Shown: positions 1 through 27,839 of the stretch, one piece after another
How positions within the stretch are numbered: position 1 is the first letter of the stretch
How the letters are laid out: every line of letters starts with the position of its first letter
DNA from: a virus
Taxonomy: Duplodnaviria; Heunggongvirae; Uroviricota; Caudoviricetes
Length of the DNA: 64,000 nt
IMG/VR virus record: IMGVR_UViG_3300013902_000267
Strand: one strand, 5' to 3'
Position numbers and translations under genes: made by a program
The notes under the pieces: generated by a model
Seen by the model: the letters and a program-made list of their open reading frames with translations, nothing else
The model's database searches: none
Told to the model about the DNA's origin: nothing

Positions 1-32
1 TATATATAAGATAGTAAGCTTATAGATTTTAT

Positions 33-1518: not shown

Positions 1519-1530
1519 TTTATAATTGTT

Positions 1531-1710: not shown

Positions 1711-1712
1711 AT

Positions 1713-2396: not shown

Positions 2397-2398
2397 TT

Positions 2399-4577: not shown

Positions 4578-4583
4578 TAATAT

Positions 4584-5938: not shown

Positions 5939-5940
5939 TT

Positions 5941-6177: not shown

Positions 6178-6183
6178 ATAGTA

Positions 6184-6216
6184 TATTTAAAAGTCACTAA
6201 AATAAAAACTTTAGTG
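6184..6216 (+). terminator. rho-independent terminator-like hairpin
   Basis: AAGTCACTAAA-ataaaaa-CTTTAGTGACTT followed by a T-run, directly after the 5941..6177 stop. Confidence 0.55.
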
Positions 6217-6263
6217 ACTTTTTCTATTATTATATATGAATTATAATTTAAACTATAAGATAA

Positions 6264-6647
6264 ATGAATTTAATTACAAATATAAAGAAATCATACAAAC
6301 ATATACCATATACATTTAAACATTGGAAGATGGTATTGAAATTAGAGAAGAAATATATAGGCTATTATAAATATCCTTTTCATGATTTAGATAAATTGTT
6401 CATGTATATATTCTTCCCTTATTTAGGAACAAAGATAATTCAGAAAATTCATACAAAGTTTGCTAATCATCATTTACGTAAATATAAGAAACATATGAAT
6501 TTTGATGAAGCTATTCTTGATTGGGAATCTGCAAGGTTTACAAAACCTGATAAACCATTGGATGCGTGGGATACATATCAAAAATATTTTACGGAATTTT
6601 CAAATGAACTTTTACCTATATTTGAAAAATTTAACTTGAAACATTAA
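6264..6647 (+). CDS. hypothetical protein (127 aa)
   Basis: Uninterrupted ORF. Confidence 0.45.
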   Translation: MNLITNIKKSYKHIPYTFKHWKMVLKLEKKYIGYYKYPFHDLDKLFMYIFFPYLGTKIIQKIHTKFANHHLRKYKKHMNFDEAILDWESARFTKPDKPLDAWDTYQKYFTEFSNELLPIFEKFNLKH

Positions 6648-6869
6648 AGACTTTATTTATATACGTTTATATAAAATACATAATGATTTTGTTTTAGAAG
6701 AACATTTATAAAAACTGTTTTAATAATTAGTGTAAAAGTGAGCACACAGAAAAAGAGAATTATGATAATTTCTGTAGAGCATGGATCAATACCAGCATTA
6801 TATAATGTACAGTTTATAGCAACGAATGTTCGAAATTTAAATTAACTATATGTCTAACATTCTTAATTT

Positions 6870-6939
6870 TTATTATTGGTAATAAGTGGCAAAACATGCT
6901 AGGAATAGTAAGTTATCGGTTCGAACCCGATATAATAAA
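6870..6939 (+). other. tRNA-like element (possible degenerate tRNA)
   Basis: Perfect 7-bp acceptor pairing TTATTAT/ATAATAA. Canonical T arm ATCGG-TTCGAAC-CCGAT. No convincing D arm or anticodon arm could be folded by eye. Confidence 0.3.
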
Positions 6940-7154
6940 GATAGAAAATGGATGATAGTTAATGATGCTAGATATAACGCTTATTATAGAAGTATTATAG
7001 GATTTGATTGAAGTGTGGATGTTTATTATACCTGTTCTATTTTTTAATAAAACAAATGTCCCTATAGATTGAAACATGGATTGAGATGAATATAATATGA
7101 TGTAATTTTAAGTTTGTTATATTTAGCATTAATTTTTTAATAAGAATTATTAAT

Positions 7155-7598
7155 ATGTATATGTTACGATTACAAGATTTACCAGATGGTGCAATAGTTC
7201 AATTATACTATAGGTCTTACGAAGAAGGATATGGACGTAGTAAACCAATGTTTAGAACATATATTATATCATTTAATGATAATACTATAATTTTTTCAAA
7301 TGTAGAATCTAAATACGAAGGTAATTTTAGTTTTTATTTAAATCAAACAGCACAATATATACATTTTGATCCAACAGACATAAATAATATTAATAATTTT
7401 GGATTTGATAAAAACTATATTATTGTATATGGAATTTATACATTTGATGATTCTAATAATAAAGTAAAAATGCCATATTCAATGAAAGGCAAGTATAAAA
7501 TGAACATATACAATACAAAATGTATATATCAAGAAGATATATCAAAAATTGCAGGGGATGAAATACAAGCTTACAATAGACGATACAAATATTATTAA
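7155..7598 (+). CDS. hypothetical protein (147 aa)
   Basis: Uninterrupted ORF. Confidence 0.45.
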   Translation: MYMLRLQDLPDGAIVQLYYRSYEEGYGRSKPMFRTYIISFNDNTIIFSNVESKYEGNFSFYLNQTAQYIHFDPTDINNINNFGFDKNYIIVYGIYTFDDSNNKVKMPYSMKGKYKMNIYNTKCIYQEDISKIAGDEIQAYNRRYKYY

Positions 7599-8109
7599 TA
7601 TAAACATATTACCCGGTGCAAAATTTGAATGTACAATATATAAAGGCAACGGACATTATGAAAGTTCATATGGAACTATTATGAAATGCAATGATAGATT
7701 AGTATTAATGTTGTGTGGACTTTTGTTTTTTGGATATGACTATCATTCTTGGAATAGTATTCATACTTATAATAAAAAACATTATCTGTATTATAATTAT
7801 TATAAGAATGATAACGATAGTATGAAAATAAAAGGTATTGTATGGTATTTAGATTTTGAAAAATATCCAGATAATTTTGGATTGTCTCCAAAATTATTTG
7901 TTGTTACTGATATATGGTTTAATAATATACATATATATAAAAGTAATTATATGTTGAAGAAATACAAACCAAGTTTAAAACCAAATTATATACATGAAGC
8001 AAATGAAAATTGTAAATGTTTTAAATATTGCGGTGGTAGTGTATATTCATCGGAAAAGTTAGAGGAATATGCAGAAGTAATACCTAATAAAAATTATAAT
8101 TATGAATAA
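7549..8109 (+). CDS. hypothetical protein (186 aa)
   Basis: Uninterrupted ORF overlapping its neighbours. Confidence 0.45.
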   Translation: MQGMKYKLTIDDTNIININILPGAKFECTIYKGNGHYESSYGTIMKCNDRLVLMLCGLLFFGYDYHSWNSIHTYNKKHYLYYNYYKNDNDSMKIKGIVWYLDFEKYPDNFGLSPKLFVVTDIWFNNIHIYKSNYMLKKYKPSLKPNYIHEANENCKCFKYCGGSVYSSEKLEEYAEVIPNKNYNYE

Positions 8110-9580
8110 TATTAAAGAAAATAATTTTTTCATTCCTAGAAAAATTGCTGTAGGATTTGTAAAAAGAGCAAATACATATTCAGGAAAGTTATCTTATATT
8201 ACTTATTATGATAATACTAATAAATTACGTAAGGACGTATCTTGGAATGGTTGGAGAGATAAAAATATAGAACCTGTATATACGGATAATATTCCAACAA
8301 CAGGTTTTATTATTAATAAACGTGCAGGAGGCGAAAAATGGGGATGGAACCAAAGAGCAACATATGCGCGTATATATGATCCAAGAGGGTTTGAATTTGA
8401 GATAACTATAGATAATCTTCTTTGGATTCTGGAATATACTAATTCAGAAAACAAGGAATTAAAAGGACAATTTGTATATAGTTGGTATGGAACTGAACTT
8501 GTACTTATGCCTATTGTTTCATCTGATTATGAAGAATCTAAACGTTTATCTGAACAACAATATAATAAAACATCGTTTAAAGAACGCGATTTAATTCCTG
8601 GAACACTTTATAAAATGAAAGGTAAGGAATTAAATGAATTGGTATATATTGGTAAAGTAAAAGTATCTACTGAATTCAATATGTCTTATGTTAATAAATT
8701 AGCATTTGTACCTATACAGGATTCTTGGAAGTTATATTCACATTATGATAAAAATATCAACAGATCTGATTTCTTTATATTTAAAAGTGTTTCGTCTGTT
8801 ATAGCAGAAATGCAACAAAATTATTTTAGTGACGATATTGTAAAAGAATATCTACATAGATTTGATATGTGCGCGTATTCATATAATTTCTGGAATAATT
8901 TTGGTAATTTCATTGATAAATTTGTTTCTGACCATCCATGTATAATGAATGATTATAAAAAACCATATAAGATAGAATATAATAGATATAGCACAGAGAA
9001 GAATAATTATAATAATATTATTGATAAATTCGAATATAATGGTATAAAGTTAGATTCATTAAGAATTATTCCTGAATGGTTAATCCAAACAGACAGAGAA
9101 CACATATTTTATGAAAATACAAGTGTATTAAAATCAGTTATATCCGATGATGGTAAATCCGTATTGATAAAAGATCAATATCCTACTATAGAAAAGATTA
9201 ATACATTTAATAGGATTGTATATAAACGAATGTATGATTTCATGAATATTGATTTAAATACAAATACATTTAATAAAATATGTGATCCCGGATTGTGGGA
9301 TGAATATAGAGGTCATCATTCTTGCGAAGTATCAAATATTATATATAAGCATCCATCAGAAACTACAGATGTTCAGAAAGCAAGAGAAATTAATACTCAG
9401 GTTTCATTAAATGATAACAGAACATTCTTATATTATATAACGAAGGATAATTATATATCTATATCATTACAGGAAATGATACGGAATCATCGTTATATGA
9501 AATTCGGTTTCTCGAATGGTATAGATGAGAATAAATGGGTAACATTAGATGTAATATTGTTACCAAAAAAGATTAAGTAA
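8102..9580 (+). CDS. hypothetical protein (492 aa)
   Basis: Long uninterrupted ORF with no in-frame TAG. Confidence 0.5.
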   Translation: MNNIKENNFFIPRKIAVGFVKRANTYSGKLSYITYYDNTNKLRKDVSWNGWRDKNIEPVYTDNIPTTGFIINKRAGGEKWGWNQRATYARIYDPRGFEFEITIDNLLWILEYTNSENKELKGQFVYSWYGTELVLMPIVSSDYEESKRLSEQQYNKTSFKERDLIPGTLYKMKGKELNELVYIGKVKVSTEFNMSYVNKLAFVPIQDSWKLYSHYDKNINRSDFFIFKSVSSVIAEMQQNYFSDDIVKEYLHRFDMCAYSYNFWNNFGNFIDKFVSDHPCIMNDYKKPYKIEYNRYSTEKNNYNNIIDKFEYNGIKLDSLRIIPEWLIQTDREHIFYENTSVLKSVISDDGKSVLIKDQYPTIEKINTFNRIVYKRMYDFMNIDLNTNTFNKICDPGLWDEYRGHHSCEVSNIIYKHPSETTDVQKAREINTQVSLNDNRTFLYYITKDNYISISLQEMIRNHRYMKFGFSNGIDENKWVTLDVILLPKKIK

Positions 9581-9601
9581 TTTTTTTATTTCAAAATAAT
9601 T

Positions 9602-9624
9602 ATGTATCTTTGTATTGTTAATAA
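9602..9624 (+). promoter_or_regulatory. conserved 23-nt promoter-like motif ATGTATCTTTGTATTGTTAATAA
   Basis: Near-identical copies lie upstream of at least four other genes in the window. It contains TATCTTTG, which matches the Bacteroidetes sigma-A -7 consensus TAnnTTTG. It sits 34 nt upstream of ATG 9658. Confidence 0.5.
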
Positions 9625-9657
9625 ACAAAAAGTATAAACAATTAAAAATATATAATT

Positions 9658-10149
9658 ATGGCAACAAATAAAAAGAATACAGTTAAGAAGTATATGCTTT
9701 CCCAAAATTTACCTTTTGGTAATTTAAAAGCAGGCATGATTTTCTCTTATGATACTATTACAAAAACTGCGGTATTTCCAAATGGACAAGAGATCTCACC
9801 ATTTGATGTAACAGATAAGAATTTCGTTAAGTCTGTCGCAGATGTAAAGTTTAATGTAGGTGATTGTGTCATTTATCATACACGATTGTATAAGATTACT
9901 GATATTAACTATGTAACAGGTCGTTGTAAGCTTTTAGAGTTTTACGCAAATAAAGAGGTTGATTTTGTAAGTCATTCTGTATTGACAGCAGCACAAGTTT
10001 ATTGGTTTGTTAATTCGTCTGGAACTGTTTCATCATCATATATTGGCAAACAACCAGATGCAGACTTATGGAGAGCAAAAACAAAGAACATGTTTAATAC
10101 CAAGGAGGAGTGTCAGAAGTATAAGAATATTGTTCTTAAAAGTAAATAA
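9658..10149 (+). CDS. hypothetical protein (163 aa)
   Basis: Uninterrupted ORF preceded by the conserved promoter motif and followed by a hairpin. Confidence 0.5.
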   Translation: MATNKKNTVKKYMLSQNLPFGNLKAGMIFSYDTITKTAVFPNGQEISPFDVTDKNFVKSVADVKFNVGDCVIYHTRLYKITDINYVTGRCKLLEFYANKEVDFVSHSVLTAAQVYWFVNSSGTVSSSYIGKQPDADLWRAKTKNMFNTKEECQKYKNIVLKSK

Positions 10150-10198
10150 AGAATATTTTTCAAATTTAAAATTTTAAATTAATATTTTATTTAACTCT

Positions 10199-10232
10199 TA
10201 AAGAGATTTGTAGTGATTACAAGTCTCTTTTT
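10199..10232 (+). terminator. terminator-like hairpin
   Basis: AGAGATTTGTA-gtgat-TACAAGTCTCT followed by TTTTTT. Confidence 0.5.
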
Positions 10233-10270
10233 TCTTTTTAATAAATATATAAAATATAAAAGAAGTATTA

Positions 10271-10863
10271 TGCCAACAATGATGCCATTAATGGATAAAG
10301 ATACCGTAAGATATATAACATAGAATATTACACCAGAAGAAACTAAATATGTAGCTGATATAAAATCTACTATTGATGATACAAAGTGTGAACCAGAGAA
10401 ATGTGATGATGTTATATATCTTACTAAGATTATCGCTTTTTATACTAAATTTACAAATCTTGCAAATACAACACCTAATAATCAATATAAGATGCATATT
10501 CAAGATTTTATGTGGAGATTACAGCAATATAAGGAAGATATATTTGAAGTTGTTCAATCTATCATAGGAGTTTTAAATGGTTCCGATATTACAAAGATTG
10601 AATTACCTATAAGTGATAATCCATTAGAGATTATAAATGAATTAAAACAATGTGTACAAAATTGGTTTACACTTCATACAGATGATATTGAATATGAAGG
10701 CGCTAGATCATTAACTAGTTCATTCCTTTCTGTAATTCATAAGTTTGTTTACCTTTTTAGATTAGATAAATGCTCGACTGCTGATTATGGTCAGGATTAG
10801 AAATTACCAAATCCTGATGCAGGATTATGTGGAGTAAACGGAGCATATGCAGTAAATTTTTAA
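10271..10863 (+). CDS. hypothetical protein with in-frame TAG codons; needs a -1 shift at a T-run (10438-10441) for continuity
   Basis: Frame from ATG 10271 reads MPTMMPLMDKDTVRYITQNIT... up to the T5 run. The -1 frame continues ...YTKFTNLANTTPNNQYKMHIQDF... through TAG 10798 to TAA 10861-10863. Confidence 0.35.
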
Positions 10864-10874
10864 TATGATATAAT

Positions 10875-11828
10875 ATGAATCCTATAAATCAACCATCATC
10901 TAGAAATTACAATATCAATGGTAGTACAAGAAATAATGGGTTCTTATATAAAATTATGCCTTTATCATTTAATTTACAATAGAGAGGAAATGATTTTAAA
11001 GTTAAAAAATACAATAAGTGTAAATTTAATATCGGCGATAATGTAAGAGGATTGTGTTTGGAAGATAAGAAAGAACATTCAGGACGAATTACTAATATCT
11101 TATACAGTACAAATACAGAAGTTCCTTATTTAGTTTATATCATTGATAATAAGACAAGATAGAAATTATCATTAAACTTTAGTTCGCTAGAATTTAATAA
11201 TTCTAAAATTGATGAGTCATATGGGTTTGATGTTGCCATTAAACTATATGAAACATTAAATAAAGATAAATATAATAAATTAAAACTTTAGAATAGAATG
11301 GTAAATTCAATAAAAGTTTTACTTGAAGAATATTTTAATAATACAGAACAAATGGATATGTTGTTAAATGATTATTAGAAACAACAGAAAAAAGCAAGTA
11401 AAGCATATGATTCACGTCAAGAGTTTTTAAAATCAATATTAGGTAAAGTAACATATAACAAATATCAAAATAAAGGTATGTTTGCTCCTATTCCTTTATC
11501 TGCATTGCATTTAACATTCGAAGATTTTTATTATTTGTTTCCAGAGAATAATATTAAGATGAGACCAATGGATAATGAAGCAGGTGTAGAGAAAGTAAAG
11601 AAACTTATTGCACGTATTAATAAGGAATATCCTAATAACGGTATTAGATTGTTAGATAATGGTGTTTCTTATACATTAAGTTCAAATCTTGTATTTAAGA
11701 GATTAGATAATATAATTGATTTTTTATAGATAATTCAGAAAAATGTTTTGAGGATTTCATCTGATAAAACAAATCCAACAGTTAATTGGAAGGCGATGAT
11801 AAAGAAATTCAGAAATTATCTACGATAA
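10875..11828 (+). CDS. hypothetical protein (317 aa), 5 in-frame TAG
   Basis: Single frame from ATG 10875 to TAA 11826-11828 with no TAA or TGA. It joins ORF-track fragment 11478..11729 to its upstream and downstream pieces. Confidence 0.55.
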
Positions 11829-11861
11829 TCAAATAAGTAAAATAAATTAATTAAAATAATA

Positions 11862-12365
11862 ATGATGATAACTACAAACATAAGTAACATTCCAGACGCA
11901 TGGGATGGTTATTTTGAACAATAGGTTAATAAGTTCACGCCTTCTGTTGAAGTTCCTAAGCCTTGGAGACATCCGGTTGGACCTGAACCTATGATGAAAC
12001 CTTGCAAGCATCATAAGACATAGTTTATTATAAAACATAAACCTGCTACATTACCAAATGGACCAGAACATGGATGTAACGTATGTGATCCATATCATCC
12101 AAATTTGTATGATCATATGAATATGCCTTGTTTTAATCAACATAAACCATATGGTATCGCTACTAATAGATTAATGAGTCCATTTGAAGATGATGATAGA
12201 CCTGATTGGCATGAATTCCATGCTAAGAATCGTAAACCTATGATGTTTGAAGAAGTTATAGATGAAAATGGTTGTTCACATGGTCCTCATGGAACAATTA
12301 ATGTTAGACCAGTTGAACCTGCTGATGATGAAGCAGATGAGATTGAAGATGAAGTAACAGTTTAA
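11862..12365 (+). CDS. Cys/His/Pro-rich small protein (167 aa), 2 in-frame TAG
   Basis: Continuous frame containing ORF 12105..12365. Acidic C-terminal tail. Motifs HGCNVCDPYHPN and CSHGPHG. Confidence 0.5.
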
Positions 12366-12461
12366 AATGAAAATTAATTAATGATAGAAATATAAATTAT
12401 GCAAACATCAAGTAAAGTTTCATACGATAATTGGAGTGATTGGAATTTAGGAAATTAGATA

Positions 12462-13166
12462 ATGAATATAAGACCTGTTGGTACATATTGCTTCTGTGAA
12501 CATCATCATTGTCACCATCATCATCCTTGTGATTGTGTAGATTGTGAATTCTCAGAATCATATATTAAACCAGAATCTTGTTGTCATCATCATCCGCATC
12601 CACCAGTACCATGTCCACCACATCATTGTGATTGTCATGATCCACATTTATTTCCAATTGATCAAGATAATGATGGATTTGTAGAAAGTGATATGATTCA
12701 TAAACATCCAGAACCATATATTCCAGAACCATTACCAGGAGAAATTGGAGATAAAGAAGATGATACAACAAATAGAATGGAAGTAGGTGACGAAGTTGAT
12801 GATATTGATGATTCAACAAATTATTATGGTTCAAATTTAGTTGTAAGTATTCCTAAAGAAATTCAACCAGTAGAAACATCAGATGAAATTGATTCTATTT
12901 TAGATGAAGATACACAAGATGATATGGTAACTACTGATGAAGATGGTTATCATACATTAAGTGATGAAGTTCCAGCAGAAGAAGATAATTGGGAAACATC
13001 AAAAATGATTGATACTAATACATCTAAAATTATTGAAGAAACACCAGTTCCTGAATAGGAATTAAAGGAAGTTGAAACTATTCCATCTGTAGAATCAGTA
13101 GAAGAGAAACCCACACGTGGACGTAGAAGAGTTAATCGTGGAGGAAGACGTAAAAAAGAAGAATAA
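12462..13166 (+). CDS. His/Cys-rich acidic protein (234 aa), reads through TAG 13056
   Basis: CHHHHPCDCVDC...CCHHHPHPPVPCPPHHCDCHDPH metal-binding-like clusters. The frame continues past TAG to TAA 13164-13166 and adds a basic RGRRRVNRGGRRKKEE tail. Confidence 0.55.
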
Positions 13167-13182
13167 TTTTTATTCTATATAT

Positions 13183-13225
13183 AATAGAAAAGAGACTTAG
13201 AACAAAAATACTAAGTCTCTTTTTA
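13183..13225. terminator. bidirectional terminator hairpin between convergent genes
   Basis: AGAGACTTAG-aacaaaaatac-TAAGTCTCT flanked by A/T runs on both sides. Confidence 0.5.
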
Positions 13226-13262
13226 TTTTTTATAAACATTCACATTTAATTTTACTATAAAA

Positions 13263-13889
13263 TTAAAGCATACATTCATCCCACCAGTCAGCGCGGAAAG
13301 TCATATCACAAGACATCAAATCTGTACTGTCATAATTAAGTGTAGGACCAGGTACACCTGTTGTAGGGAAAATGTAATAGAATACCCATTGCCAATATGG
13401 ATTACCAGCACGATCTTGCATAGTAATAGTCATTGATGGCGCCACGTAATCTTTCTTAAGGCCTTCACGACCTGTAAGAGGATCATAAATAAGGTCAACC
13501 CATTCACGAAGGAACTTATATGTGTAGTTCTCAGGTGAACCGTTATCATATGAAAGGTTAAGGTTAAAGTGTAATGTCAAGTCGACATTAGTTCTATCTG
13601 GTTTTGCACCAGCGAATGAACGTTGTGCAAATTTATACTTTTGCTCTGTTGCGTTAGCACCAAATGAAGTAGAAATCTGACCAACACTTTGTACACCTTC
13701 AAGAATAATATTCAAACGTTCATCATCTGTTGTATCAACCATACCTTGAGGACAACTTAATTGAACAGTAAACAAGTTCAAATATATAGGTTCCCATAAT
13801 GAGGTAGATACACGGCTATTTCTAAAATGTGATAATCCTAACAAACCTGGAGATTTCTTAGGTAAAGTAGGTCCATTTGTTACTGCCAT
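13263..13889 (-). CDS. hypothetical protein (208 aa), possible virion or tail-tube-like
   Basis: Uninterrupted ORF on the opposite strand inside the + late module. It is visibly GC-richer than its surroundings and has no TAG. Weak resemblance to phage tube proteins only. Confidence 0.4.
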   Translation of the reverse strand: MAVTNGPTLPKKSPGLLGLSHFRNSRVSTSLWEPIYLNLFTVQLSCPQGMVDTTDDERLNIILEGVQSVGQISTSFGANATEQKYKFAQRSFAGAKPDRTNVDLTLHFNLNLSYDNGSPENYTYKFLREWVDLIYDPLTGREGLKKDYVAPSMTITMQDRAGNPYWQWVFYYIFPTTGVPGPTLNYDSTDLMSCDMTFRADWWDECML

Positions 13890-14042
13890 ATTATTATTAA
13901 AGTATATTTTATTTTATTTATCTGTGAAAAATAGGTAGATTAAATGTAGACAAAAATATTTTTTTATAGTATAAATTAAGAATTTAAAAAAAATAGAGAT
14001 AAATAATTAAGTTCAAAAAATAAATTTTAAATAAAGAAGAAA

Positions 14043-14219
14043 ATGAAGAAGATTTTATTTGTACTTGCTGCTGTTGTAACAATGAGTTTCGCTTCTTGTG
14101 GTAACAAGACTACTACATGTGGAACAGCAAATGATTCAACTGCAACAGATACTACAGTTGTTGATTCTACAGCTACAGATTCAACTGCAGCTGATTCTAC
14201 AGTTTGTCCTATGTAATTC
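14043..14219 (+). CDS. small lipoprotein (58 aa)
   Basis: MKKILFVLAAVVTMSFASCGN has a signal peptide and lipobox Cys, then Thr/Asp/Ser repeats. The ORF-track call 14027..14221(-) is the antisense frame of this gene. Confidence 0.45.
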
Positions 14220-14389
14220 ATAAGACAAACTTTATTTTAGAGAAGATTATTGTGTAATTAAAATATAACCTAATATAAGGTTTATATTAAACTAATTTTA
14301 GAGATATACTAAATATATTCATTTATATTTGGTATATCTTTTTTTATTTAATAAATATTTAAAATTTATTTAACTGAATTATATAATAT

Positions 14390-15286
14390 ATGGCAACATG
14401 GAATCAAGCAGTTCAATAGATGGGTAAGTTTTATCAATAGAATATACATACATATCAAGGAGGTAAATCAGGACATGCGACAGGTGCTAGACGTTCTTAT
14501 TCATGTCCTTTAGTTGGACACAGTGTAGGAGATGATTGTTCAGGATTTACTTCTGCGTGTTTATAGTTATTTGGAGCATTTCCAGGCTCATATATTGTTT
14601 CATCTAGTGGTTTTGCATCAACATCTGGTGCAACAGCCGCATATTTAAGAAAAGCTGGATTTTCACCGTTAAGATATATTAGTTACTCATCTTTATAGCC
14701 ATATGATATTGTTGCAAGAAATGGACATGTTGAAGTATTTTGTGGTATGAAGGGAAGTTCACCAATGTCATACGCATGGGGAAATATTCATGATGGCATA
14801 AATGGACATGTTGGTATGCCATGTTGGTTTTCTAAACAGTCTTATTCTATTGTATGGAGAAATTCTGGTGTAAGTATAGATACACCATTAGATTTTTCTT
14901 CAGTGTCTGGCGGTTCATTACAACAATAGATGAATTCTGGATATGGTACAGGTGGAACATTAAATGGGTAGACAGGTTCATAGTTTAATTATACATCAAA
15001 TACATATCCTGTTCATGATGAATATGAAACTATTTCATCTGGTAATGGTTCAAAATCTGTATTTGAAATTGTAGGTGAAAATACATTACGTATGGCATAT
15101 ACAAATTCATCATATATACAACAATTAGATTCATCTAATTATTAGTTAAAAAATACTCGTATATATTCAACTAATGATGCATCTATAATATTAGATGAAT
15201 TATCAATACCATTAGATCCATTTGATACGAGTGTTAATACATTAGATTCAAGTGTTATTGATAATTCAGTTAAAACAAATAATTAA
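14390..15286 (+). CDS. NlpC/P60-family cell-wall peptidase (298 aa), about 9 in-frame TAG
   Basis: Continuous frame from ATG 14390 to TAA 15284-15286. It carries the catalytic Cys motif GDDCSGFTS (DCSGF) and the His motif NGHVEVF. Its C-terminal module is shared with the next gene. Confidence 0.6.
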
Positions 15287-15292
15287 TAATAT

Positions 15293-16333
15293 ATGGCTGG
15301 CAAGAAATTACTTAATGGTGTTTATATAACAAAGAAAATAATGGAAGCTTTTAATCTTAAAGATTATCAGGCTGCTGGATTTGCTGGTTGTTTTATGGAA
15401 GAATCTGGTTGTGATCCCGGTGCATATAATGCCGCTGAAAAATCTGGAAGATTTAAAGGTTCATCAGCGAACGGTGCAGGTTATGGTGCAGGTCTTGCAT
15501 AGTGGTCTAATGCATGGAAACGGTAGATATAGAGATAGTTTAATAATTCAAGGCCTATAGAAAATTGGACATTAGATTAGCAAATAGCTATTGTTACTAA
15601 AGGCTGTTCATAGTCTTTTGTAAATTTATTAAGAAAATGTACATCAGTAGGTTAGTCTACAGATATTGTTTTAAGAGGATATGAAAATGGTTCTGCAGGT
15701 AAAGGTACTAAATTACGTTCATAGCAATCAATGAAAGCATATACGTGGTGTAAGACATCATATATGGCAGATGGTAGTAGACGTACGTTTAGTGATGGAT
15801 ATATTGGTGCATTAACATGTAGAACATCATGGGCTAATGCAGTTTTAAGTAAAATGGGATCAGTTAATCTTGCAGATTTATCCGGATTAGGAACAGAAGT
15901 AGGTGGAGGATTAGGTGATGATGGCTCTTTTGGTTCTACTGGTGGAGGAGGAACTGGAGATTCAAACGCATATCCTGTTCATGATGAATATGAAACATTT
16001 ACTGGACAAGGTGGAAATATATTTGCAAATGCAAAAGATAATGCATTTCAATTAGCTGCTGATGCATCAAAATCTAAATTTTCATCTAAAGATTCTGAAG
16101 CATCTAAGCATACACGTATATATTCTACAAATGATTCTTGTATTGTTTTAGATGAATTAAGTATACCATATGATCCAAATGATCCAACTATTGAATATGC
16201 AAATCAAAATGTAAAAGCGGAAGATGTTAAGAAAGATACATCTACTAATGCAAAAGATAATACTAAAGACACATCTACAAATAAAAGTACAAATAAATCT
16301 AATACTACAAAAAAGACAACTAAATCTAAATAA
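15293..16333 (+). CDS. lysozyme-like (phage tail lysozyme-type) protein (346 aa), multiple in-frame TAG
   Basis: N-terminus AGFAGCFMEESGCDPGAYNAAEKSGRF...GYGAGLAQWS resembles the phage tail-lysozyme GNxxxESxxxP block. ORFs 15293..15502 and 15731..16333 are in the same frame and are joined only through TAG codons. Thr/Lys-rich tail. Confidence 0.5.
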
Positions 16334-16335
16334 TT

Positions 16336-19300
16336 ATGATTACAATAAATGGTATTAAATATTTAAAAAAAGGAGAGACATCAAATGATAAAACAATAAC
16401 GCATTATTATTATACAGATTCATTAAAGAAAACTTATAACATAATATATAATGGCAAAAATGCTAAATTATATACAGATACTAAAGTATACAAGGATTCT
16501 GATACAAATTAGATTATAAAGAAAGATTTCTTTAATTATACTATTGATTACGGAACAGGAAAATATGGAGGTGTTTGTTATTCAAAATCAGATGAAGATA
16601 AGATATTAGGTATGGTCGATTCTGATAGTAATATAGATGGAAGTTCTAATGGAGATTCTACAACTGATGGTGATAATAGTTCAAACTCTGGAAATAATTC
16701 TGATGATTCTGATAATAATGACGGTAATAGTTCAAATAATGGTAATGGAACAGGTGATGATACAAATGATTCTGATAGTAATGGATCTGGTAATAAAGAT
16801 ACTAATAATAAAGGTATATTTGAGGATTCAATGGGTAATAAAGATAAAGATAATCCTCGAAGTTCATTACCATTAGGAGCAGATATTAAAGATCCTGATG
16901 TTACAGGTTTTAGCATTGATGAAGTAACAGCGCCACATCCACGAGAAAACAATTGGTATAATAAAGGTTCTGTTTGTCCAATAATACGTATAAATGATCA
17001 TTATTTTTCTGATACTGAAATATAGCATTTTTCTATGGAAACTGGATATTATAAGAATTTTTATGATTATCAAGTATACCAAGCACCGTTAACAGGTGTT
17101 TTACCAACTATGAGGCTTATTGTTACAACAACAGATCCAGGTTTATTAAAGAAAGATTTTATAAAGCAAGGTGATAGATGTAATGTATTTTTCTAGAGTA
17201 ATCATTCTATGATTAAATCTATGAGATGTGATTTCAGAATTACTAATGTTGTAACAGATTAGTTAGATTAGACGTAGTATTAGAAATATCAAACATAGAT
17301 TATAACAGGTGAACTTTATGTCCCGGATTTAAGAAATGAAGAAACTCGTTATAATTTTAATGGTTCATCAAGAGATGCTATGATGGATTTGGCAAAGAGA
17401 TTAAGATTAAGTTTTTTCTTTTGTGATCCTGATGATACTAATGATAAAATGGTTTGGTGTAATTGTAAAACACCTGAAATGTTCATTCATGATTTAACAA
17501 CGCATGCATGGAAAAATTCTATATCATTCTTTGAATCTTGGATTGATCCACGTTATGGATTATCTTTTATGAATATTAATAGATTATTAGGTGAAGATGG
17601 ATTTGATGAATCAATAGATATGACATTCTGGACTAATACATTTATTAATAATAGATCAGTTGATGGAAAATCTGCAAATGAAACAGATACAGAATAGAAA
17701 AATAGTACACATATTCAAACAAAATGTTTTACTAATATTATTAATGATAATGAATCTGCTACAGTATATCATGTTAATAGTTGGAGATTGGTTAATAATG
17801 CATAGGAAATACAAGATTTTGTTGGATTGAATTGTAAAATGCAATATTCATCTGTTAATCCTGGATTATTATCAGATGAGAATAATAATCCAAATTATAG
17901 TGTAGAATTTTCATTATGTTTAAATAGAACTAAATTTGATCCAACTAAAAAGGATAATGATTTTTATGTATTATTAGGACCTGGTAGAAATATGACATAT
18001 GCGAGTGGCGATGCCGCCATGGGAACATCTGAAACACAATCTTCAAATAAAAATGAACCTGAACAAGTTACAAATCAAATGTCTGATGGTGATGCAGATG
18101 CAATGGATAGTACAGGAAATAATATGATGTCTTCTGGTAATACACATCAATTTTATGAAGTTGCTTATGAACATAATATGAGAAATTTACTATAGTTATA
18201 GAAATAGTATTTACTTGTAGAATTAAATGGTGCAAACTTAAGTATTGTTCGCGGTGAAAAAATGCCTATTGTATTAATGGATTTAAATAAAGCAGAACAA
18301 GCTATTAGAACTAGTCAAGCACGTACAAAAATAGAAGAATGTATGTATGAAGCTGAATCCGGTTGGTATATAATTGATGGTATTGAATGGGTTTTTGATC
18401 CTGATAATGATTAGGGACAAGGTACAAACTGGCGAACTAATGTGAAATTAGTTAGAAGAGAATGGCCAATACCATCAAAAATAAAAGATGCAAATGGTAA
18501 TACTGTTTCAAAAAATGTCGCAAATAGTATTGTTTTGGTAGATATTGGAAACGGACAATAGATAAGAATGGCTTATTATGATGCAGTAAAGAAATATAGT
18601 TAGGAAATAAAAAATGGTGATGTCAAAATATTAGGTGGAACAACATCTGAAGACGCAGTTGTAATTGGTCAGAAAAAACAAAACATATCTTCAACTAATG
18701 ATGAATAGAATTCAGATGATCTAGAAGAAAGTGGTAAATTATATACTGCAAATGGTGTAGAGACTGTAAGTGCAGTTAATTTTAATCTTGATTTAATGGA
18801 TCAATATGTAAAAGATTCTGATTATGTTGGTTAGTCTACAATACCTTTAACTGGTTTGAAAGATTTTATGAAAAATATTTATAAAACAATATTATCTGAA
18901 TCCGATAATAAATGTAAATTGGTATCTGGAAGACGGTGGGCAGTAGATGAATATGGTAATAAGGTAAATGGAAATGCGTTTGTAAAGAAATATGATTATT
19001 ATAAATGTATGAATGCTATAGGTGAAGTAATGTATTTTAAAAAAAATAATTCAAGTCATTTATATGGTGAAGCTATTGATATTATTAATAATGGTATAGA
19101 TTTTACTGAACTTATGACTAATGTAATAATGAAATCACCTGCGATATTAAAATTATTTTATGATAATGGTGTTTCTGCTTATATAGAGCAAGCAAAGGAT
19201 GATACAGGCGCAACTACTAAACATTACCATATTGGAACTGATACAATAAAACAACGAGAATTTTGGGAATCTGTTAAAGCTATATTAGGTTCTGATATGA

Positions 19301-19425
19301 TTCCAGGAACTATGATAACATTTATGAACTATATGACAAAAAATACATAGAGAACAACAGAATTCTCTGTAAGTAGTGAAATAGACGAAAACACATTACA
19401 AAAAAATAGTAATAATGATAAATGA
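16336..19425 (+). CDS. large tail-associated protein (about 1029 aa) with C-terminal M15 (VanY/L-Ala-D-Glu) peptidase; roughly 25 in-frame TAG
   Basis: ORF fragments 16612.., 17380.., 17827.. and 18856.. are all in the frame of ATG 16336. There is no TAA or TGA until TGA 19423-19425. The protein has a Ser/Asp/Asn/Gly low-complexity region. The C-terminus carries SSHLYGEAIDI (H-x6-D) and KHYHIG (H-x-H), the M15 zinc motifs. Confidence 0.6.
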
Positions 19426-19431
19426 AAATAA

Positions 19432-19461
19432 GGGAATAGATATTTGTAATCTATTCCCTTT
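19432..19461. terminator. bidirectional terminator hairpin
   Basis: GGGAATAGAT-atttgtaa-TCTATTCCC followed by TTTATT, between convergent genes. Confidence 0.55.
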
Positions 19462-19467
19462 ATTATA

Positions 19468-20433
19468 TTAAATATGTTTTCTTTTTAATATTTGAATAAA
19501 TTCATCTTCAGTTATTTGAGCACCTGCTGCACCTTCATGTCCTCCACCATGATAATATTCTTGAAGATATTTACCACAATGGAATTCATGTGTATCTGTA
19601 GGATTATACAATGAAATTGCCCACATACCATCAGGTAATCTCTTAAATACAATACCGTTTTTGATTTTATCTTTACATGTTTTAAATATCTGTGAATTTG
19701 TTGGTTTCTGAATAAACAAAGCACATGCAGATCGATTATCAAATCCTACAGTCCATGTAAAATCACCATATGAATTAATGAGGTTCTTATTGTTTCTATC
19801 AATAATCTCTGATTCTAACTTACCTAATTCTTTAAGTTTCCCTAGTTCACATGCTAATTCTTCTGGTTTTGCTTGATATATTATATAATATACATGATTA
19901 ATAATTTCACTTACATTTAAATCATATTTATTATTAACACCAATGTTTACATATCTACAAAAATCAAAATTAATATTCTCCGCATCATAACTCCAGCTAT
20001 CCCATGCAGACAATACTTTAAACAAATCCGGTATTCTTCCAATAAAATTATACAAATAGCTAAAAGCATTATATAATGCAGAATGATCGATTGTCCTTAA
20101 ACCCTGAATATCGTCAAAATGTAATTCTTTTGAACTATTAATCATAGGCGCATGATGGTCAAACCAATATAGTTTATCACCAAAATGTTTTTTCAGTTTA
20201 AGCATTGTTTCTGCTGTATCAAACGAAATATCTGATATATAAACATAATCATATACACCTATAATATCATTTTGAATATTTAAGTTCTCCATCCCATTAT
20301 AATCTTCACCTAATAGTGTGATCATATTTGGATGTATTCCTTTTTCAATTACAAGAAAATTATATATGATAGCCATCGAAAATAAACCATCATTATCTTC
20401 CTTGTGATATATAATTAAATATTTGTCATCCAT
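19468..20433 (-). CDS. DHH/DHHA1-family phosphoesterase (RecJ/NrnA-like)
   Basis: Motifs present: YHKEDNDG (DxD), WFDHHAP (DHH), GGGHEGAAGA (DHHA1 GGGH). Confidence 0.7.
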   Translation of the reverse strand: MDDKYLIIYHKEDNDGLFSMAIIYNFLVIEKGIHPNMITLLGEDYNGMENLNIQNDIIGVYDYVYISDISFDTAETMLKLKKHFGDKLYWFDHHAPMINSSKELHFDDIQGLRTIDHSALYNAFSYLYNFIGRIPDLFKVLSAWDSWSYDAENINFDFCRYVNIGVNNKYDLNVSEIINHVYYIIYQAKPEELACELGKLKELGKLESEIIDRNNKNLINSYGDFTWTVGFDNRSACALFIQKPTNSQIFKTCKDKIKNGIVFKRLPDGMWAISLYNPTDTHEFHCGKYLQEYYHGGGHEGAAGAQITEDEFIQILKRKHI

Positions 20434-23395: not shown

Positions 23396-24600
23396 ACGTT
23401 TTCTCCATATATTTCTATATGGTCCGGGTCATATCTTATGTTTATTTAAATAATAAACATTGCACTATTTCGGCATTTAAAACGATTCGTTTCCTAAAAC
23501 GTTACTACGTATCAATAGTAGTCCTACTCCACCTGCTCATCACTTAGGGGATGACCTCCACACACATTAATAATTTTTATATGTTCTACCTATTAACATA
23601 TTCCTAAAATTATTCATTAAATAATTTTTATATTTACCGATTTTTAATTCTTCAATAGATTTGCCATTATTATATTGTTCTCTTAAATAAACAACTTCAT
23701 CTTTAGATAACAATGGTAACTTCTATTTACATTTATCAGTTCTAATAGGCATTTTTACATGCATATATGATTTTCCAAATAATATTTTATTAAATCCACT
23801 CCATGAATATAAATTACTATATTCTTTAAAAATATCATCTTCTTTTTCACCATTTACAAAATATCTTATTCTTATGTTTAATACTTCTTCATCAGATAAA
23901 TTCTTAGAATTTGCATGCATATTTCCTCTACGTGTTCTTCGATCTGATTTATAAAAATCATTTACTTTATCTGTATTATATTCTATACCAATTTCAGGTC
24001 TTGTATAATAATGCCAATATTTTGAAAATCCACTTTTTGACATTCTATCTTTATACATTTCATATACTTCTCCAAAAGTATATTTCATAGAATAACGTAT
24101 TTTTCTTAATTCTAATAATTCATTATCATTTAATATTGCTTTGGGATGCTCCTCCCCAACTTTTATTATAGTTGCAGAATGTCCACCCAATGTAGAATTA
24201 TATCCATTATTATAACTATCATATAATTTAATGTAATATATTTCTTTATTATCAGCTTCATCCTAATTAGGAACATTATCTTCTAATATTGAAAAATTTG
24301 ATTCATTAATATTATATTTTCTCATTGCTCTATATAATTTATAATCACTATGTTTCATATCATTTAAATGTTCTCTTACTCTTATATGATAATGATGTGT
24401 CTACCCAATATATACTTTTCCATTAGGAAATGATATTTTATAAATTGTAAATATTTTATTCATATATTATAAATGTAAAATTATAACATATTTATATTAA
24501 CTTGGCTCGGTATTACCATGCATATAGTTTCACAACTTATGTTTAGGCTTCACCGATGCATTAATATCGCTATATTAATACATTGCTTGATTAGCAATTA
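23396..24600 (-). mobile_element. group I intron 3 in nrdD, carrying a GIY-YIG endonuclease ORF
   Basis: R-like GGAGTAGGACTAC and S-like AAGATATGACCCGG on the minus strand near 23425-23530, 3' of the ORF. Confidence 0.5.
23723..24463 (-). CDS. GIY-YIG homing endonuclease (246 aa), 2 in-frame TAG
   Basis: N-terminal IYKISFPNGKVYIG(Q)T...RVREH GIY-YIG motif, with a TAG inside the YIGxT block. C-terminal GEEHPKAILNDNELLELRKIRY DNA-binding module. ORF 23723..24190 is only its C-terminal part. Confidence 0.65.
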
Positions 24601-26452: not shown

Positions 26453-27839
26453 AACGAATTTCACGTTAAAAGGGTTTGTTTAAACCGTTTAGACTATATC
26501 ACCAAATTTAATTTTCTTAAATTTGCACCTACACTTCCATAACACTTGTTATGTACTCTACTAACTCATTTAAAGTTTTCGATAGTCGTTGAACTTTTAT
26601 CCTTGTAGGATAATTAGCTGCGTATGATTACCCAATCTTTATCGTTTTTACAATCTGATAGCCGTTATACTATCTGCTACTATCTATGTTACCATGATAT
26701 GCTGTAGATAAAGCTCTAAGGGACTTCCCGCAATTCAAGGTGTTTATTAACGTCAGCACATGTAATTTCTCTTATAATTTAATTATTACCAAAATTATGT
26801 ATTTTATACATGTGACAATTTTTACAATATGTTATAAGATTATCTATGTTATTAAGTTCTTTATTTTTTATCGCTAAATTAAATAATTCATCAAAATTAT
26901 CAGTAGGATTTAATTCTGGATGTTCTGATAATAAATTATGAAATAATATTTTAAATGGAACTATATGATGAACTTGAAGATTTTCATGACAACCGCATAG
27001 CTAACAAGTATTATGATCTCTCTCTATAACTTCTGGAACTAATCGATTAAAATATGTTCTTATTTTATTACCTAATCTTGTAGTATCTGTTGTATATGGA
27101 ATATTAGTAATATTTAAACTATTTAATACTCTATTAATTACAGCTATTGTACAATTATATCTCCGTGCCAATTCTGTTTTTGATATTGACTATTCAATAT
27201 ATAAATTATATAATTTTTTATAATCATTAAAATCTTCTGGTATTTCTTTTTTATGATAATTCCACATAGATTCTGCAAAAGTACGTCTTTTAATCCCATT
27301 ATGTTTTAAATGACTTCTTATAGTAGTTGCTGAACAGTTAAATATTTTACCTATTTCTACTGTAGATTTACCATCATTATATAATTTTATTATTTCCTAA
27401 TCATTTGTATCATCATATTGTTCATAAACTTCATAATTAGTATTTTTTATATTATATTTTTTAAAATATCTATTAATAGTACCTTTATGACATTTATATA
27501 TTTCTGAAATTTCTTTCATTGTTAAACCATTATTAACATAATTTATTAAATCTTCTTTTTTAATTATTAATTTAGATTTTTCAATATTCCATTTTCTTAA
27601 ATATTCTTTAATATTTGCTAATGTTGTATTTCCTTCTTTAGCACACTATTTTCGTGTTAAACCTTTAATAACATAATTTTCATATAACCAATCTCTATCT
27701 TTTGTAAAATATCTATAATTAGACATAATTTCAGATATGTAAAATTACATACAGGATTATGTAATTTTTAATTTATTTTAGTTTATGCTGACTATAATCC
27801 TCTGGAGGCCGCAGGTTGGTTAATTGAATACACGACCTA
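26453..27839 (-). mobile_element. group I intron 1 in nrdD, carrying an HNH homing endonuclease ORF
   Basis: Minus-strand AATTGCGGGAAG (P element), GTTCAACGACTATCG (R) and GGTGATATAGTCTAAAC (S) lie 3' of the ORF. Confidence 0.6.
26779..27726 (-). CDS. HNH homing endonuclease (315 aa) with repeated HTH modules; 4 in-frame TAG
   Basis: C-terminal C(Q)LCGCHENLQVHHIVPF...NLITYCKNCH HNH motif, where the first CxxC includes a TAG codon. Three GxxxxEIxxxxxxxxxTI HTH-like repeats. ATG at 27726, TAA at 26779. Confidence 0.65.

What the first reader, a model, noticed from the sequence alone, without database searches (positions are those of the whole stretch)
14390..19425. Three consecutive peptidoglycan-hydrolase genes in the late module; one is a ~1030-aa protein with extreme TAG density
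An NlpC/P60 peptidase, a tail-lysozyme-like protein and a ~1030-aa protein with a C-terminal M15 metallopeptidase follow one another. All are readable only with TAG as sense. In the large gene, 17255-17300 encodes DQLDQTQYQKYQTQ with five TAGs in 14 codons. Such clustering would make translation strongly dependent on suppressor tRNA levels. That is a plausible timing switch restricting lysin and tail-protein synthesis to late infection.
Basis: partly seen in the sequence, partly recalled or inferred. Interest (0 to 1): 0.55.

Follow-up and report, generated by a model that had tools for sequence, protein, structure and literature searches.

The report
Megaphage tail-hub cell-wall-cutting gene cassette
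These three genes of a known gut megaphage (Lak-B, which reads TAG as glutamine) encode the central hub of the tail baseplate and two wall-cutting enzymes that probably ride on it, and the striking run of TAG codons is what chance gives in a glutamine-rich loop.

Summary
The window is Prevotella megaphage Lak-B; the region is 100% identical to Lak-B4, B7 and B8. This published phage reads TAG as Gln (code 15). The three ORFs are real and intact only if TAG is sense:
- g1: 14390-15286, 8 TAG.
- g2: 15293-16333, 8 TAG.
- g3: 16336-19425, 19 TAG.

Domain calls:
- g2 is a Phage_lysozyme2 protein (Pfam, above the curated cut-off).
- The g3 C-terminal domain carries invariant LAS/M15-type motifs but fails every M15 profile search. 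M15 membership is therefore probable, not shown.

g1 and g2 share an ~80-aa C-terminal module. In related phages this module sits on one to three different lysins just upstream of the hub, or is fused to it. The set looks like virion entry lysins, not a lysis cassette.

TAG density is ordinary for TAG-using Lak genes (ranks 27, 44 and 73 of 482 ORFs). The five-TAG cluster is real and the densest in the genome. Shuffling TAG among Gln codons gives such a cluster in 70% of trials. It lies in a variable loop and is absent in relatives. The timing-switch idea is an already published hypothesis.

The parts
14390..15286 (+). g1: 298-aa tail lysin. It has an N-terminal NlpC/P60/CHAP-like cysteine peptidase (res 1-160, 14390-14869; Cys50 at 14537-14539, His113), a Gly/Gln-rich linker and a C-terminal module. 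8 in-frame TAG.
14999..15229 (+). C-terminal module of g1 (res 204-280): YPVHDEYET...TRIYSTNDASIILDELSIPLDP.
   Evidence: 40% identical to the g2 C-terminus over 94 aa, E=1e-17. Only two copies in the window. Invariant T-R-I and D-E-L. AF2 pLDDT below 40 when modelled alone.
15293..16333 (+). g2: 346-aa tail lysozyme. It has a Phage_lysozyme2 domain (res 12-150, 15326-15742), a Gly-rich linker, the module (res 225-300, 15965-16192) and a Lys/Thr-rich tail. 8 in-frame TAG.
   Evidence: Pfam PF18013 at 7.3e-13, 49.3 bits against a cut-off of 28.2. PHROG 9570 lysozyme region of tape-measure proteins. Module.
16336..19425 (+). g3: 1029-aa baseplate central hub with a lytic C-terminal domain. 19 in-frame TAG.
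- N-terminal beta domain: res 1-95, 16336-16620.
- Asp/Asn/Ser/Gly low-complexity linker: res 97-209, 16624-16962.
- Hub core: res about 210-715, 16963-18480.
- C-terminal LAS/M15-like domain: res about 830-1010, 18823-19365.
17257..17298 (+). The TAG cluster. Codons 308-321 (DQLDQTQYQKYQTQ) hold 5 TAG and 1 CAA. They lie in a variable loop between two hub beta-strands (CDFRITNV... / ...IITGELYVP).
   Evidence: positions. (variable column block). (Lak-A/C: TAG at 309, 312, 319, 321; CAA at 314; CAG at 316). (statistics).
19051..19230 (+). Putative zinc site of the g3 C-terminal domain: S906-x-H908-x-x-G-x-A-x-D915 (19051-19080) and H963-x-H965 (19222-19230). LVS(A/G)RR lies upstream (res 862-867).
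   Evidence: All invariant or nearly so in 53 homologues. hhalign aligns the three motifs collinearly to the true Pfam M15_3 domain of P0047, P=6e-4, probability 29%. The same motif in P0047 matches 1lbu, the Streptomyces albus D-Ala-D-Ala carboxypeptidase.
19430..19460 (.). Bidirectional intrinsic terminator hairpin (12-bp stem) between convergent g3 and the DHH phosphoesterase gene. It ends the g1-g2-g3 operon.
   Evidence: Lak-A1 has a hairpin at the same place with a different stem sequence.

Best explanation
This is a three-gene operon of Prevotella megaphage Lak-B that encodes the cell-wall-penetrating centre of the contractile tail's baseplate.

g3 is the central hub, with the fold of T4 gp27, Mu gp44, P1 gp6 and VgrG. 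An extra C-terminal domain is most likely a divergent LAS/M15-type zinc peptidase. g1 (NlpC/P60/CHAP-type cysteine peptidase) and g2 (Phage_lysozyme2 muramidase) each end in the same ~80-aa module. I infer that this module anchors them to the hub. On tail contraction, up to three different bond specificities (glycan, stem peptide, cross-link) would then reach the Prevotella murein at the point of entry.

The TAG codons are ordinary Gln codons of the Lak code (code 15), read by the phage's tRNA(CTA). About half of the Gln codons in these genes are TAG, as in other TAG-using Lak genes. Full-length protein can therefore be made only once suppression works. That fits synthesis after the code switch, but these genes are not specially tuned. 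The five-TAG run is a by-product of a Gln-rich, fast-evolving surface loop.

Shown: ORFs, folds, motifs, TAG=Gln, synteny, statistics.
Inferred: hub docking by the module, enzymatic activity, virion location, timing.
For: Identity and code:
- 100% nt identity to Lak-B4/B7/B8 over 14000-19500.
- Lak uses code 15, and TAG concentrates in structural regions (PMC6784885).
- One tRNA(CTA) in Lak-B4 (PMC8346664).
- Of 35 TAG codons in g1-g3, the Lak-A1 orthologue has TAG at 14 and CAA/CAG at 12.
- TAG at g3 residues 620, 622 and 624 falls on invariant or near-invariant Gln columns. This includes the TAG-free relative P0038.

Hub:
- A tail-tube-like gene lies next door (phrog_45 at 3e-11).

Lysins:
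- Pfam Phage_lysozyme2 for g2.
- NlpC/P60/CHAP fold and a Cys/His pair for g1.
- LAS motifs for the g3 C-terminus.

Module-hub link:
- g1 and g2 share the module.
- L020 has three different module-bearing enzymes directly upstream of the hub. L018 has one and L019 has one (T4-type lysozyme).
- In L004/P0049-52, P0022 and P0095 the lysozyme and/or module is fused in frame to the hub.

TAG is ordinary:
- Genome-wide ranks 27, 44 and 73 of 482 ORFs. TAG share of Gln is 0.47-0.57 against a median of 0.43.
- The fused hub of L004 has 21 TAG (47% of its Gln codons), and its large neighbours have 45-56%.
- The cluster is explained by chance.
Against: - No Pfam or PDB sequence profile recognises the hub, the g1 peptidase or the g3 C-terminal domain.
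- The module is predicted with pLDDT below 40. Its binding to the hub rests only on gene order and fusions.
- No virion proteome exists for Lak, so virion location is inferred.
- Within the 64-kb window these three genes do hold 35 of 91 in-frame TAGs. Their TAG share is higher than in other TAG-using genes there (Fisher P=4e-4). Some enrichment relative to non-structural genes is therefore real.
Confidence: 0.75

Rival explanations
1. The dense TAG run, and the high TAG load of these three genes, is a selected translational timer. It makes lysin and tail synthesis steeply dependent on suppressor tRNA level and so restricts it to late infection.
For: - Any in-frame TAG blocks full-length product before suppression. 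With 19 TAG the yield falls as e^19: 0.135 at 90% read-through per codon and 2e-6 at 50%.
- The three genes carry 38% of the window's in-frame TAGs in 9% of its codons.
- A fourth lysozyme gene (62683-63897) and three homing endonucleases in the window are also TAG-rich. This echoes the published bias of lysis genes and an intron endonuclease in other recoded phages.
- The cluster keeps 4-5 TAG of 6 Gln in both Lak-B and Lak-A/C.
Against: - Conditioned on Gln positions, the cluster is not significant (P=0.07). A genome-wide maximum of at least 5 arises in 70% of shuffles, and 6 genes have a cluster of at least 4 against 5.7 expected.
- TAG positions are not conserved. Only 9 of the 22 aligned g3 positions that are Gln in both Lak-B and Lak-A and carry TAG in at least one of them have TAG in both.
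- g1 and g2 have half as many TAG in Lak-A/C.
- The loop has no cluster in L004 or other hubs.
- TAG density and share are near the middle of TAG-using genes genome-wide.
- The adjacent tail-tube-like gene has no TAG.
- A TAG-free relative keeps the same cassette.
Confidence: 0.1
2. The three genes are the phage's end-of-cycle lysis cassette (endolysins), not virion components.
For: - Three consecutive muralytic domains.
- A small lipoprotein ORF lies just upstream (14043-14216) and could be spanin-like.
Against: - g3 is a baseplate hub by fold.
- g1 and g2 carry a module that is fused to the hub in relatives.
- No holin-like membrane protein is adjacent.
- None of the three has a signal or transmembrane segment in its sequence.
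- A better endolysin candidate lies elsewhere in the window: a T4-type lysozyme with an N-terminal hydrophobic segment, at 62683-63897.
Confidence: 0.08
3. TAG use here has no regulatory meaning. After the suppressor tRNA was fixed, TAG drifted into every gene that is translated once it is present. Genes needed before that stay TAG-free by purifying selection. The pattern marks expression class and controls nothing.
For: - TAG and CAA/CAG turn over freely between Lak clades.
- The TAG share is about 0.45-0.55 in most large TAG-using genes.
- Clusters match random expectation.
- 282 of 482 ORFs have no TAG at all, a bimodal pattern.
Against: Sequence alone cannot separate this from a regulatory role. 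The published comparison found some lysis families biased beyond other late genes in crAss-like and Agate phages. Within the window the hub and lysin genes exceed other TAG-using genes.
Confidence: 0.4

Closest known systems
T4 cell-puncturing device (gp27 hub + gp5 lysozyme) and Mu gp44 / P1 gp6 / P2 gpD hubs
   Different: - In T4 the lysozyme is a domain of the spike protein gp5. Here the lytic domains sit on the hub C-terminus and on two separate proteins.
- No beta-helix spike domain was seen in g3.
- No Pfam hub model matches.
Hub-hydrolases and tail-associated lysins: diffocin CD1368, phage phi812 hub with CHAP/C51 domains, phage 80alpha gp59 (Tal)
   Different: The lytic domain type (LAS/M15-like) and its C-terminal position differ. 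In addition, one to three separate lysins share a common C-terminal module. I did not find this arrangement described in the papers I read.
Stop-codon recoding (code 15) in Lak and crAss-like phages, with the proposed control of late and lysis genes
   Same: This is the same phage group and the same phenomenon: TAG=Gln, a suppressor tRNA(CTA), and TAG concentrated in structural and lysis genes (PMC6784885; PMC8346664; bioRxiv 10.1101/2021.08.26.457843).
   Different: The papers read do not mention these genes: lysozyme, lysin and peptidoglycan each have 0 occurrences in the two Lak papers. The published statistical test of lysis-gene bias was done for crAss-like and Agate phages, not Lak. Here the bias is not beyond other TAG-using Lak genes.
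LAS metallopeptidases of MEROPS family M15 (Streptomyces albus D-Ala-D-Ala carboxypeptidase 1lbu; Pfam Peptidase_M15_3)
   Same: The motifs and their spacing match: (S/T)-x-x-R, N-S-x-H-(L/M)-Y-G-x-A-x-D and H-x-H / x-H-I-G. They are invariant in the family.
   Different: About 35 residues are inserted between the first two motifs. No M15 HMM or PDB profile hit was found, and no M15 structure appears in the top fold-search lists.
T6SS VgrG-effector loading through adaptor domains
   Same: The logic is the same if the module is a docking element: exchangeable enzymes attached to a hub or spike of the same fold, sometimes fused to it ('evolved VgrG').
   Different: This is an analogy only. There is no sequence or fold relation of the module to known adaptors, and no binding has been tested.

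Membership tests
Lak megaphage / genetic code 15 (TAG=Gln) | Sequence identity to published Lak genomes | tested here: met
   100% identity over 5.5 kb to Lak-B4/B7/B8, 99.7% to other Lak-B and 80% to Lak-A/C.
Lak megaphage / genetic code 15 (TAG=Gln) | Genes intact only with TAG as sense, and TAG aligned to Gln in relatives | tested here: met
   TAG and CAA/CAG swap at 12 of 35 positions against Lak-A1. Invariant Gln columns 620, 622 and 624, including the TAG-free relative.
Lak megaphage / genetic code 15 (TAG=Gln) | Amber suppressor tRNA encoded by the phage | tested here: met
   ARAGORN finds tRNA(cta) at Lak-B4 414758-414830. None is in the window.
Baseplate central hub (T4 gp27 / Mu gp44 / P2 gpD / VgrG N-terminal fold) | Hub fold | tested here: met
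Baseplate central hub (T4 gp27 / Mu gp44 / P2 gpD / VgrG N-terminal fold) | Match to a curated hub sequence model (Pfam, PHROGs) | tested here: not met
   No Pfam or PHROG hit for g3.
Baseplate central hub (T4 gp27 / Mu gp44 / P2 gpD / VgrG N-terminal fold) | Trimer at the centre of the baseplate in the virion | not testable with these tools
   There is no virion structure or proteome for Lak.
Pfam Phage_lysozyme2 (PF18013), g2 | HMM score above the gathering cut-off | tested here: met
   49.3 bits against 28.2, E=7.3e-13, residues 12-150 covering profile positions 6-137 of 140.
NlpC/P60 / CHAP papain-like peptidoglycan peptidases, g1 | HMM match to NLPC_P60 or CHAP | tested here: not met
   Only PF25309 ELLD at E=0.02, 15.2 bits against a cut-off of 27. 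Homologues carry no precomputed Pfam domain for this region.
NlpC/P60 / CHAP papain-like peptidoglycan peptidases, g1 | Papain-like alpha+beta fold with catalytic Cys at a helix start and His on a strand | tested here: met
Peptidase M15 / LAS zinc peptidases, g3 C-terminus | HMM match to a Peptidase_M15 family | tested here: not met
   No hit for the conserved domain in 20 members at E up to 10. The M15_3 and M15_4 hits come from an extra domain of P0047/P0187. One member (P0159) has M15_4 at E=0.11.
Peptidase M15 / LAS zinc peptidases, g3 C-terminus | Zinc-site motifs H-x6-D and H-x-H, with S-x-H-x-x-G-x-A-x-D | tested here: met
   S906, H908, G911, A913, D915, H963 and H965 are invariant or at least 90% conserved in 53 homologues.
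Peptidase M15 / LAS zinc peptidases, g3 C-terminus | Homology or fold similarity to a known M15 domain | tested here: inconclusive
Holin-endolysin-spanin lysis cassette | Adjacent holin or spanin genes, with soluble or signal-anchored endolysin architecture | tested here: not met
   The neighbours are a tail-tube-like gene, a 57-aa lipoprotein ORF and a DHH phosphoesterase. g3 is a hub.

The most novel reading that the evidence does not exclude
The ~80-aa C-terminal module (YPVH-EY-T ... TRIYSTND-I-LDELS-P) is a dedicated hub-docking adaptor. It lets Lak-like megaphages load one to three interchangeable wall-degrading enzymes as cargo on the trimeric baseplate hub. These include NlpC/P60-type, a second Cys/His peptidase type, Phage_lysozyme2 and T4-type lysozyme. 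Fusion to the hub occurs in some lineages. This would be a phage counterpart of VgrG-effector loading in type VI secretion.
Probability: 0.4. Interest if true: 0.5.

Novelty: new member of a known kind. Interest (0 to 1): 0.3.

Why it matters
It gives a functional label to three unannotated genes of the Lak megaphages, whose GenBank records carry no annotation. It identifies the baseplate hub and its wall-degrading equipment, which bears on how a 550-kb phage gets through the Prevotella envelope.

It also supplies a negative control for the recoding-as-timer idea. Local TAG runs in these genomes need no special explanation, and the same cassette exists without any TAG in a relative.

The shared lysin module next to, or fused to, the hub is a testable lead on how tail lysins are recruited.

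Tried and rejected
1. Homology between the g3 N-terminal beta domain and the g1/g2 module, suggested by a MAFFT placement. hhalign probability is 0.06, so this is rejected.
2. Sequence and profile searches of g3, or of its C-terminal domain, against PDB. No relevant hit.
3. Pfam scan of 20 family members at E up to 10, looking for weak M15 signals. There are none in the conserved domain. Scanning short or stand-alone relatives from the exhaustive HMMER search gave only one M15_4 hit at E=0.11.
4. The last fold search (Foldseek against PDB) was used in the hope of seeing the C-terminal domain. The list is taken up by hubs.
5. Sigma-70 promoter scan. 57 sites found against 56 expected, so it is uninformative and not suited to a Bacteroidota host.
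6. Profile search with the module. It returned mostly short fragments of code-11 gene calls and no new annotated domain.
7. Pfam on the L018 module-bearing 224-aa protein. No hit.
8. The idea that g1-g3 are genome-wide outliers in TAG use. Rejected by the whole-genome ranking.
The 92%-identical P0054 was modelled instead.
Full report
**What the sequence is.** Window 14000-19500 is 100% identical to Prevotella megaphages Lak-B4, B7 and B8, 99.7% to other Lak-B genomes and about 80% to Lak-A1/A2/C1. None of these GenBank records carries any annotation. The window has 27% G+C. Lak phages are published as users of genetic code 15 (TAG=Gln), with TAG concentrated in regions that encode structural proteins (PMC6784885). 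They encode a tRNA(CTA) and a release factor 2 (PMC8346664). I rebuilt Lak-B4 from twelve fetched pieces. ARAGORN found 33 tRNAs. One has anticodon CTA, at 414758-414830, and one has TTA, at 346243-346315. The window itself holds only tRNA-Gln(CTG) and tRNA-Lys(TTT).

**Check of the observation.** With TAA and TGA as the only stops, three + strand ORFs follow one another with gaps of 6 and 2 nt:
- g1: 14390-15286, 298 aa, 8 TAG.
- g2: 15293-16333, 346 aa, 8 TAG.
- g3: 16336-19425, 1029 aa, 19 TAG.

A 12-bp hairpin followed by a T-run at 19430-19460 closes the unit. Lak-A1 has a hairpin at the same place with a different stem sequence. The peptide DQLDQTQYQKYQTQ is encoded at 17257-17298, with TAG at 17260, 17269, 17275, 17281 and 17296.

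**TAG is Gln.** In codon alignments with Lak-A1, A2 and C1, the 35 TAG codons of g1-g3 face TAG 14 times, CAA or CAG 12 times and other codons 9 times. Conversely, several CAA or CAG codons of Lak-B face TAG in Lak-A/C. The TAGs at g3 residues 620, 622 and 624 (motif LQLQKQ) fall on columns that are Gln in 53, 52 and 45 of 53 homologues. This includes P0038, whose gene and 13 neighbours contain no TAG at all.

**Domains of g1 and g2.**
- g2 matches Pfam Phage_lysozyme2 (PF18013) at 7.3e-13, 49.3 bits against a cut-off of 28.2.
- g1 has no significant Pfam or PHROG hit. ELLD scores E=0.02, below the cut-off.
- An AlphaFold model of g1's 92%-identical homologue P0054 has a confident N-terminal domain, residues 1-160.
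- Cys50 (DDCSGF), His113 (GHVE) and His134/Asp135 are at least 90% conserved in 27 homologues.

**What g3 is.** g3 has no Pfam, PHROG or PDB sequence hit. Its model, built from 53 homologues with mean pLDDT 70.8, shows the following parts:
- an N-terminal beta domain (1-95);
- a disordered Asp/Asn/Ser/Gly linker (97-209);
- a large core (about 210-715);
- a C-terminal alpha/beta domain (about 800-1010).

**The C-terminal domain of g3.** The M15 call is only partly borne out.

For it:
- S906-x-H908-x-x-G911-x-A913-x-D915 and H963-x-H965 are invariant or nearly so in all homologues, as is LVS(A/G)RR upstream.
- One homologue, P0047, carries a second domain that Pfam does recognise as Peptidase_M15_3.
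- hhalign aligns the g3 domain profile to that domain with the three motifs in register: SGRR to SGFR, NNSSHLYGEAID to KNSAHMYGYAAD, and HYHIG to WIHIG. P is 6e-4 and probability 29%.
- The P0047 motif in turn hits the D-Ala-D-Ala carboxypeptidase 1lbu, SNSRHMYGHAAD.

Against it:
- No M15 model matches the conserved domain in 20 members, even at E up to 10.
- A domain-only profile finds nothing in PDB.

I rate a divergent LAS/M15-type zinc peptidase as likely, about 0.75. Membership is not demonstrated.

**A shared module and a conserved cassette.** The C-termini of g1 (res 204-280) and g2 (res 225-300) are 40% identical, E=1e-17. The motif is YPVHDEYET ... TRIYSTND-I-LDELSIP. The module is modelled with pLDDT below 40, as expected for a segment that folds only on a partner. 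Its distribution in related phages links it to the hub:
- L020 is TAG-recoded. A g1-like peptidase, a second Cys/His protein and a Phage_lysozyme2 protein each end in the module and lie directly upstream of the hub gene.
- L018 has one module-bearing protein 24 nt upstream of the hub.
- L019 has 37% G+C and no TAG in 14 genes. A T4-type lysozyme with the module lies 7 nt upstream of the hub.
- In L004 and proteins P0049-52, a T4-type lysozyme, the module and the hub form one 1128-aa protein.
- In P0022 and P0095 the module is fused to the hub N-terminus.

Gene order together with fusions argue that the module ties these enzymes to the hub. This is an inference, and no binding was tested. A 208-aa tail-tube-like protein (phrog_45 at 3e-11; weak Pfam T4 gp19) is encoded divergently just upstream. 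Together this points to virion-borne entry enzymes rather than an end-of-cycle lysis cassette. A better endolysin candidate lies at 62683-63897: a T4-type lysozyme with an N-terminal hydrophobic segment.

**Is the TAG load unusual?** Within the window, yes. g1-g3 hold 35 of 91 in-frame TAGs in 9% of the codons. Their TAG share of Gln codons is 49%, against 26% in the other TAG-using ORFs (Fisher P=4e-4). Across the whole Lak-B4 genome, no.
- Of 482 ORFs of at least 100 aa, 200 use TAG.
- g1, g2 and g3 rank 27th, 44th and 73rd by TAG density.
- Their TAG shares (0.47, 0.57, 0.47) sit between the median (0.43) and a little above the 75th percentile (0.55) of TAG-using genes.
- In the related phage of L004 the fused hub has 21 TAG (47% of Gln), and the two giant neighbouring genes have 45-56%.
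- In Lak-A/C, g1 and g2 carry only 4 TAG each.

So about half of the Gln codons being TAG is the normal state of TAG-using genes in this phage group.

**Is the cluster more than chance?** Against all codon positions, five TAG in 14 codons is unlikely (P=0.0009). But the segment has six Gln in 14 residues (P=0.002 for that). When the 19 TAGs are shuffled among the gene's 40 Gln codons, a cluster of at least five appears with P=0.07. It is the densest cluster in the genome. Shuffling TAG among Gln codons within every gene gives a genome-wide maximum of at least five in 70% of 2000 trials, and 5.7 genes with a cluster of at least four, against 6 observed.

The segment is a variable loop between two conserved hub strands. 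In Lak-A/C the same six Gln are TAG, TAG, CAA, CAG, TAG, TAG. In L004 the loop has one TAG. Nothing indicates selection for clustering.

**Mechanism.**
- Shown: full-length g1-g3 need read-through of 8, 8 and 19 TAG codons, and the only evident decoder is the phage tRNA(CTA).
- Arithmetic: yield falls as the n-th power of read-through efficiency, for example 0.135 for g3 at 90% per codon.
- Inferred: these proteins are made only after suppression is established.

That is the published hypothesis that recoding coordinates late genes and protects against premature lysis (bioRxiv 10.1101/2021.08.26.457843). It cannot be told apart here from the neutral view that TAG simply accumulates in genes translated after the switch. 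Two facts show that TAG use is neither universal among tail genes nor needed by this cassette: the TAG-free tail-tube-like neighbour and the TAG-free relative with the same cassette.

**Novelty and verdict.** The phage, its code and the timing hypothesis are known. What this analysis adds:
- the assignment of the hub;
- the three lytic activities;
- the shared module, with its conserved position next to the hub or fusion to it.

The two Lak papers I searched do not mention lysozyme, lysin or peptidoglycan. I file it as a new member of a known kind (hub-hydrolase and tail-associated lysins in a known recoded phage), of modest interest. The module as a cargo-docking element is the most novel reading still open.

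Noticed in passing
window 62683-63897 (+): A 404-aa ORF with 9 in-frame TAG. It has a C-terminal T4-type Phage_lysozyme domain (PF00959, 3e-6, above the cut-off) and an N-terminal hydrophobic segment (ITVAVLTMYGGVSMI). It is a candidate membrane-anchored endolysin and a fourth wall hydrolase in the window.
   Followed up: partly
window 40811-41974 (-), 26779-27726 (-), 23567-24463 (-): Three homing-endonuclease-like ORFs are TAG-rich: LAGLIDADG with 7 TAG, HTH+HNH with 4 TAG and GIY-YIG with 3 TAG. They lie among nucleotide-metabolism genes, including an NrdD N-terminal fragment at 27783-28901. This echoes the recoded intron endonuclease reported for Agate phages.
   Followed up: partly
window 14043-14216 (+): A 57-aa ORF with a lipoprotein-type signal (MKKILFVLAAVVTMSFASC...) and a Thr/Asp/Ser-rich tail, with no TAG. 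It lies between the tail-tube-like gene and g1 and is conserved in Lak-A1/A2/C1. Its function is unknown. It could be spanin-like, or an inhibitor of incoming tail lysins in the manner of T4 Spackle (the latter from my own knowledge, untested).
   Followed up: partly
window 13263-13889 (-): A tail-tube-like protein (phrog_32623 at 7e-23, phrog_45 tail tube at 3e-11, weak Pfam T4 gp19) with 8 Gln codons and no TAG. It is a structural-type gene that stays readable in the standard code, right next to the TAG-rich hub operon.
   Followed up: partly
window 11862-12365 (+) and 12399-13166 (+): Two TAG-containing ORFs encode His/Cys/Pro-rich proteins (for example CFCEHHHCHHHHPCDCVDCEF...CCHHHPHPPVPCPPHHCDCHDPH) with long acidic tails. 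Neither has a family match.
   Followed up: no
Lak-B4 genome 413973-414830 (outside the window): The single amber suppressor tRNA(CTA) lies 24 nt downstream of a GIY-YIG-like ORF that itself has 8 TAG in 253 codons. The ORFs before that are TAG-free.
   Followed up: partly
locus L019 (ena:ERZ914838 scaffold_507), 1-14919: A relative with 37% G+C uses TAG neither as a sense codon nor as a stop in 14 called genes, yet has the lysozyme+module and hub pair. It looks like the 'TAG-depleted' stage proposed as a step towards recoding.
   Followed up: partly
window 33-104 against Lak-B4 139342-139413: The window-to-genome offset at the tRNA-Gln(CTG) gene differs by 8 nt from the offset at 14000-19500, and the first 2 kb of the window is not found verbatim in Lak-B4. 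The window is therefore not Lak-B4 itself over its whole length. It could be B7, B8 or another Lak-B variant.
   Followed up: no
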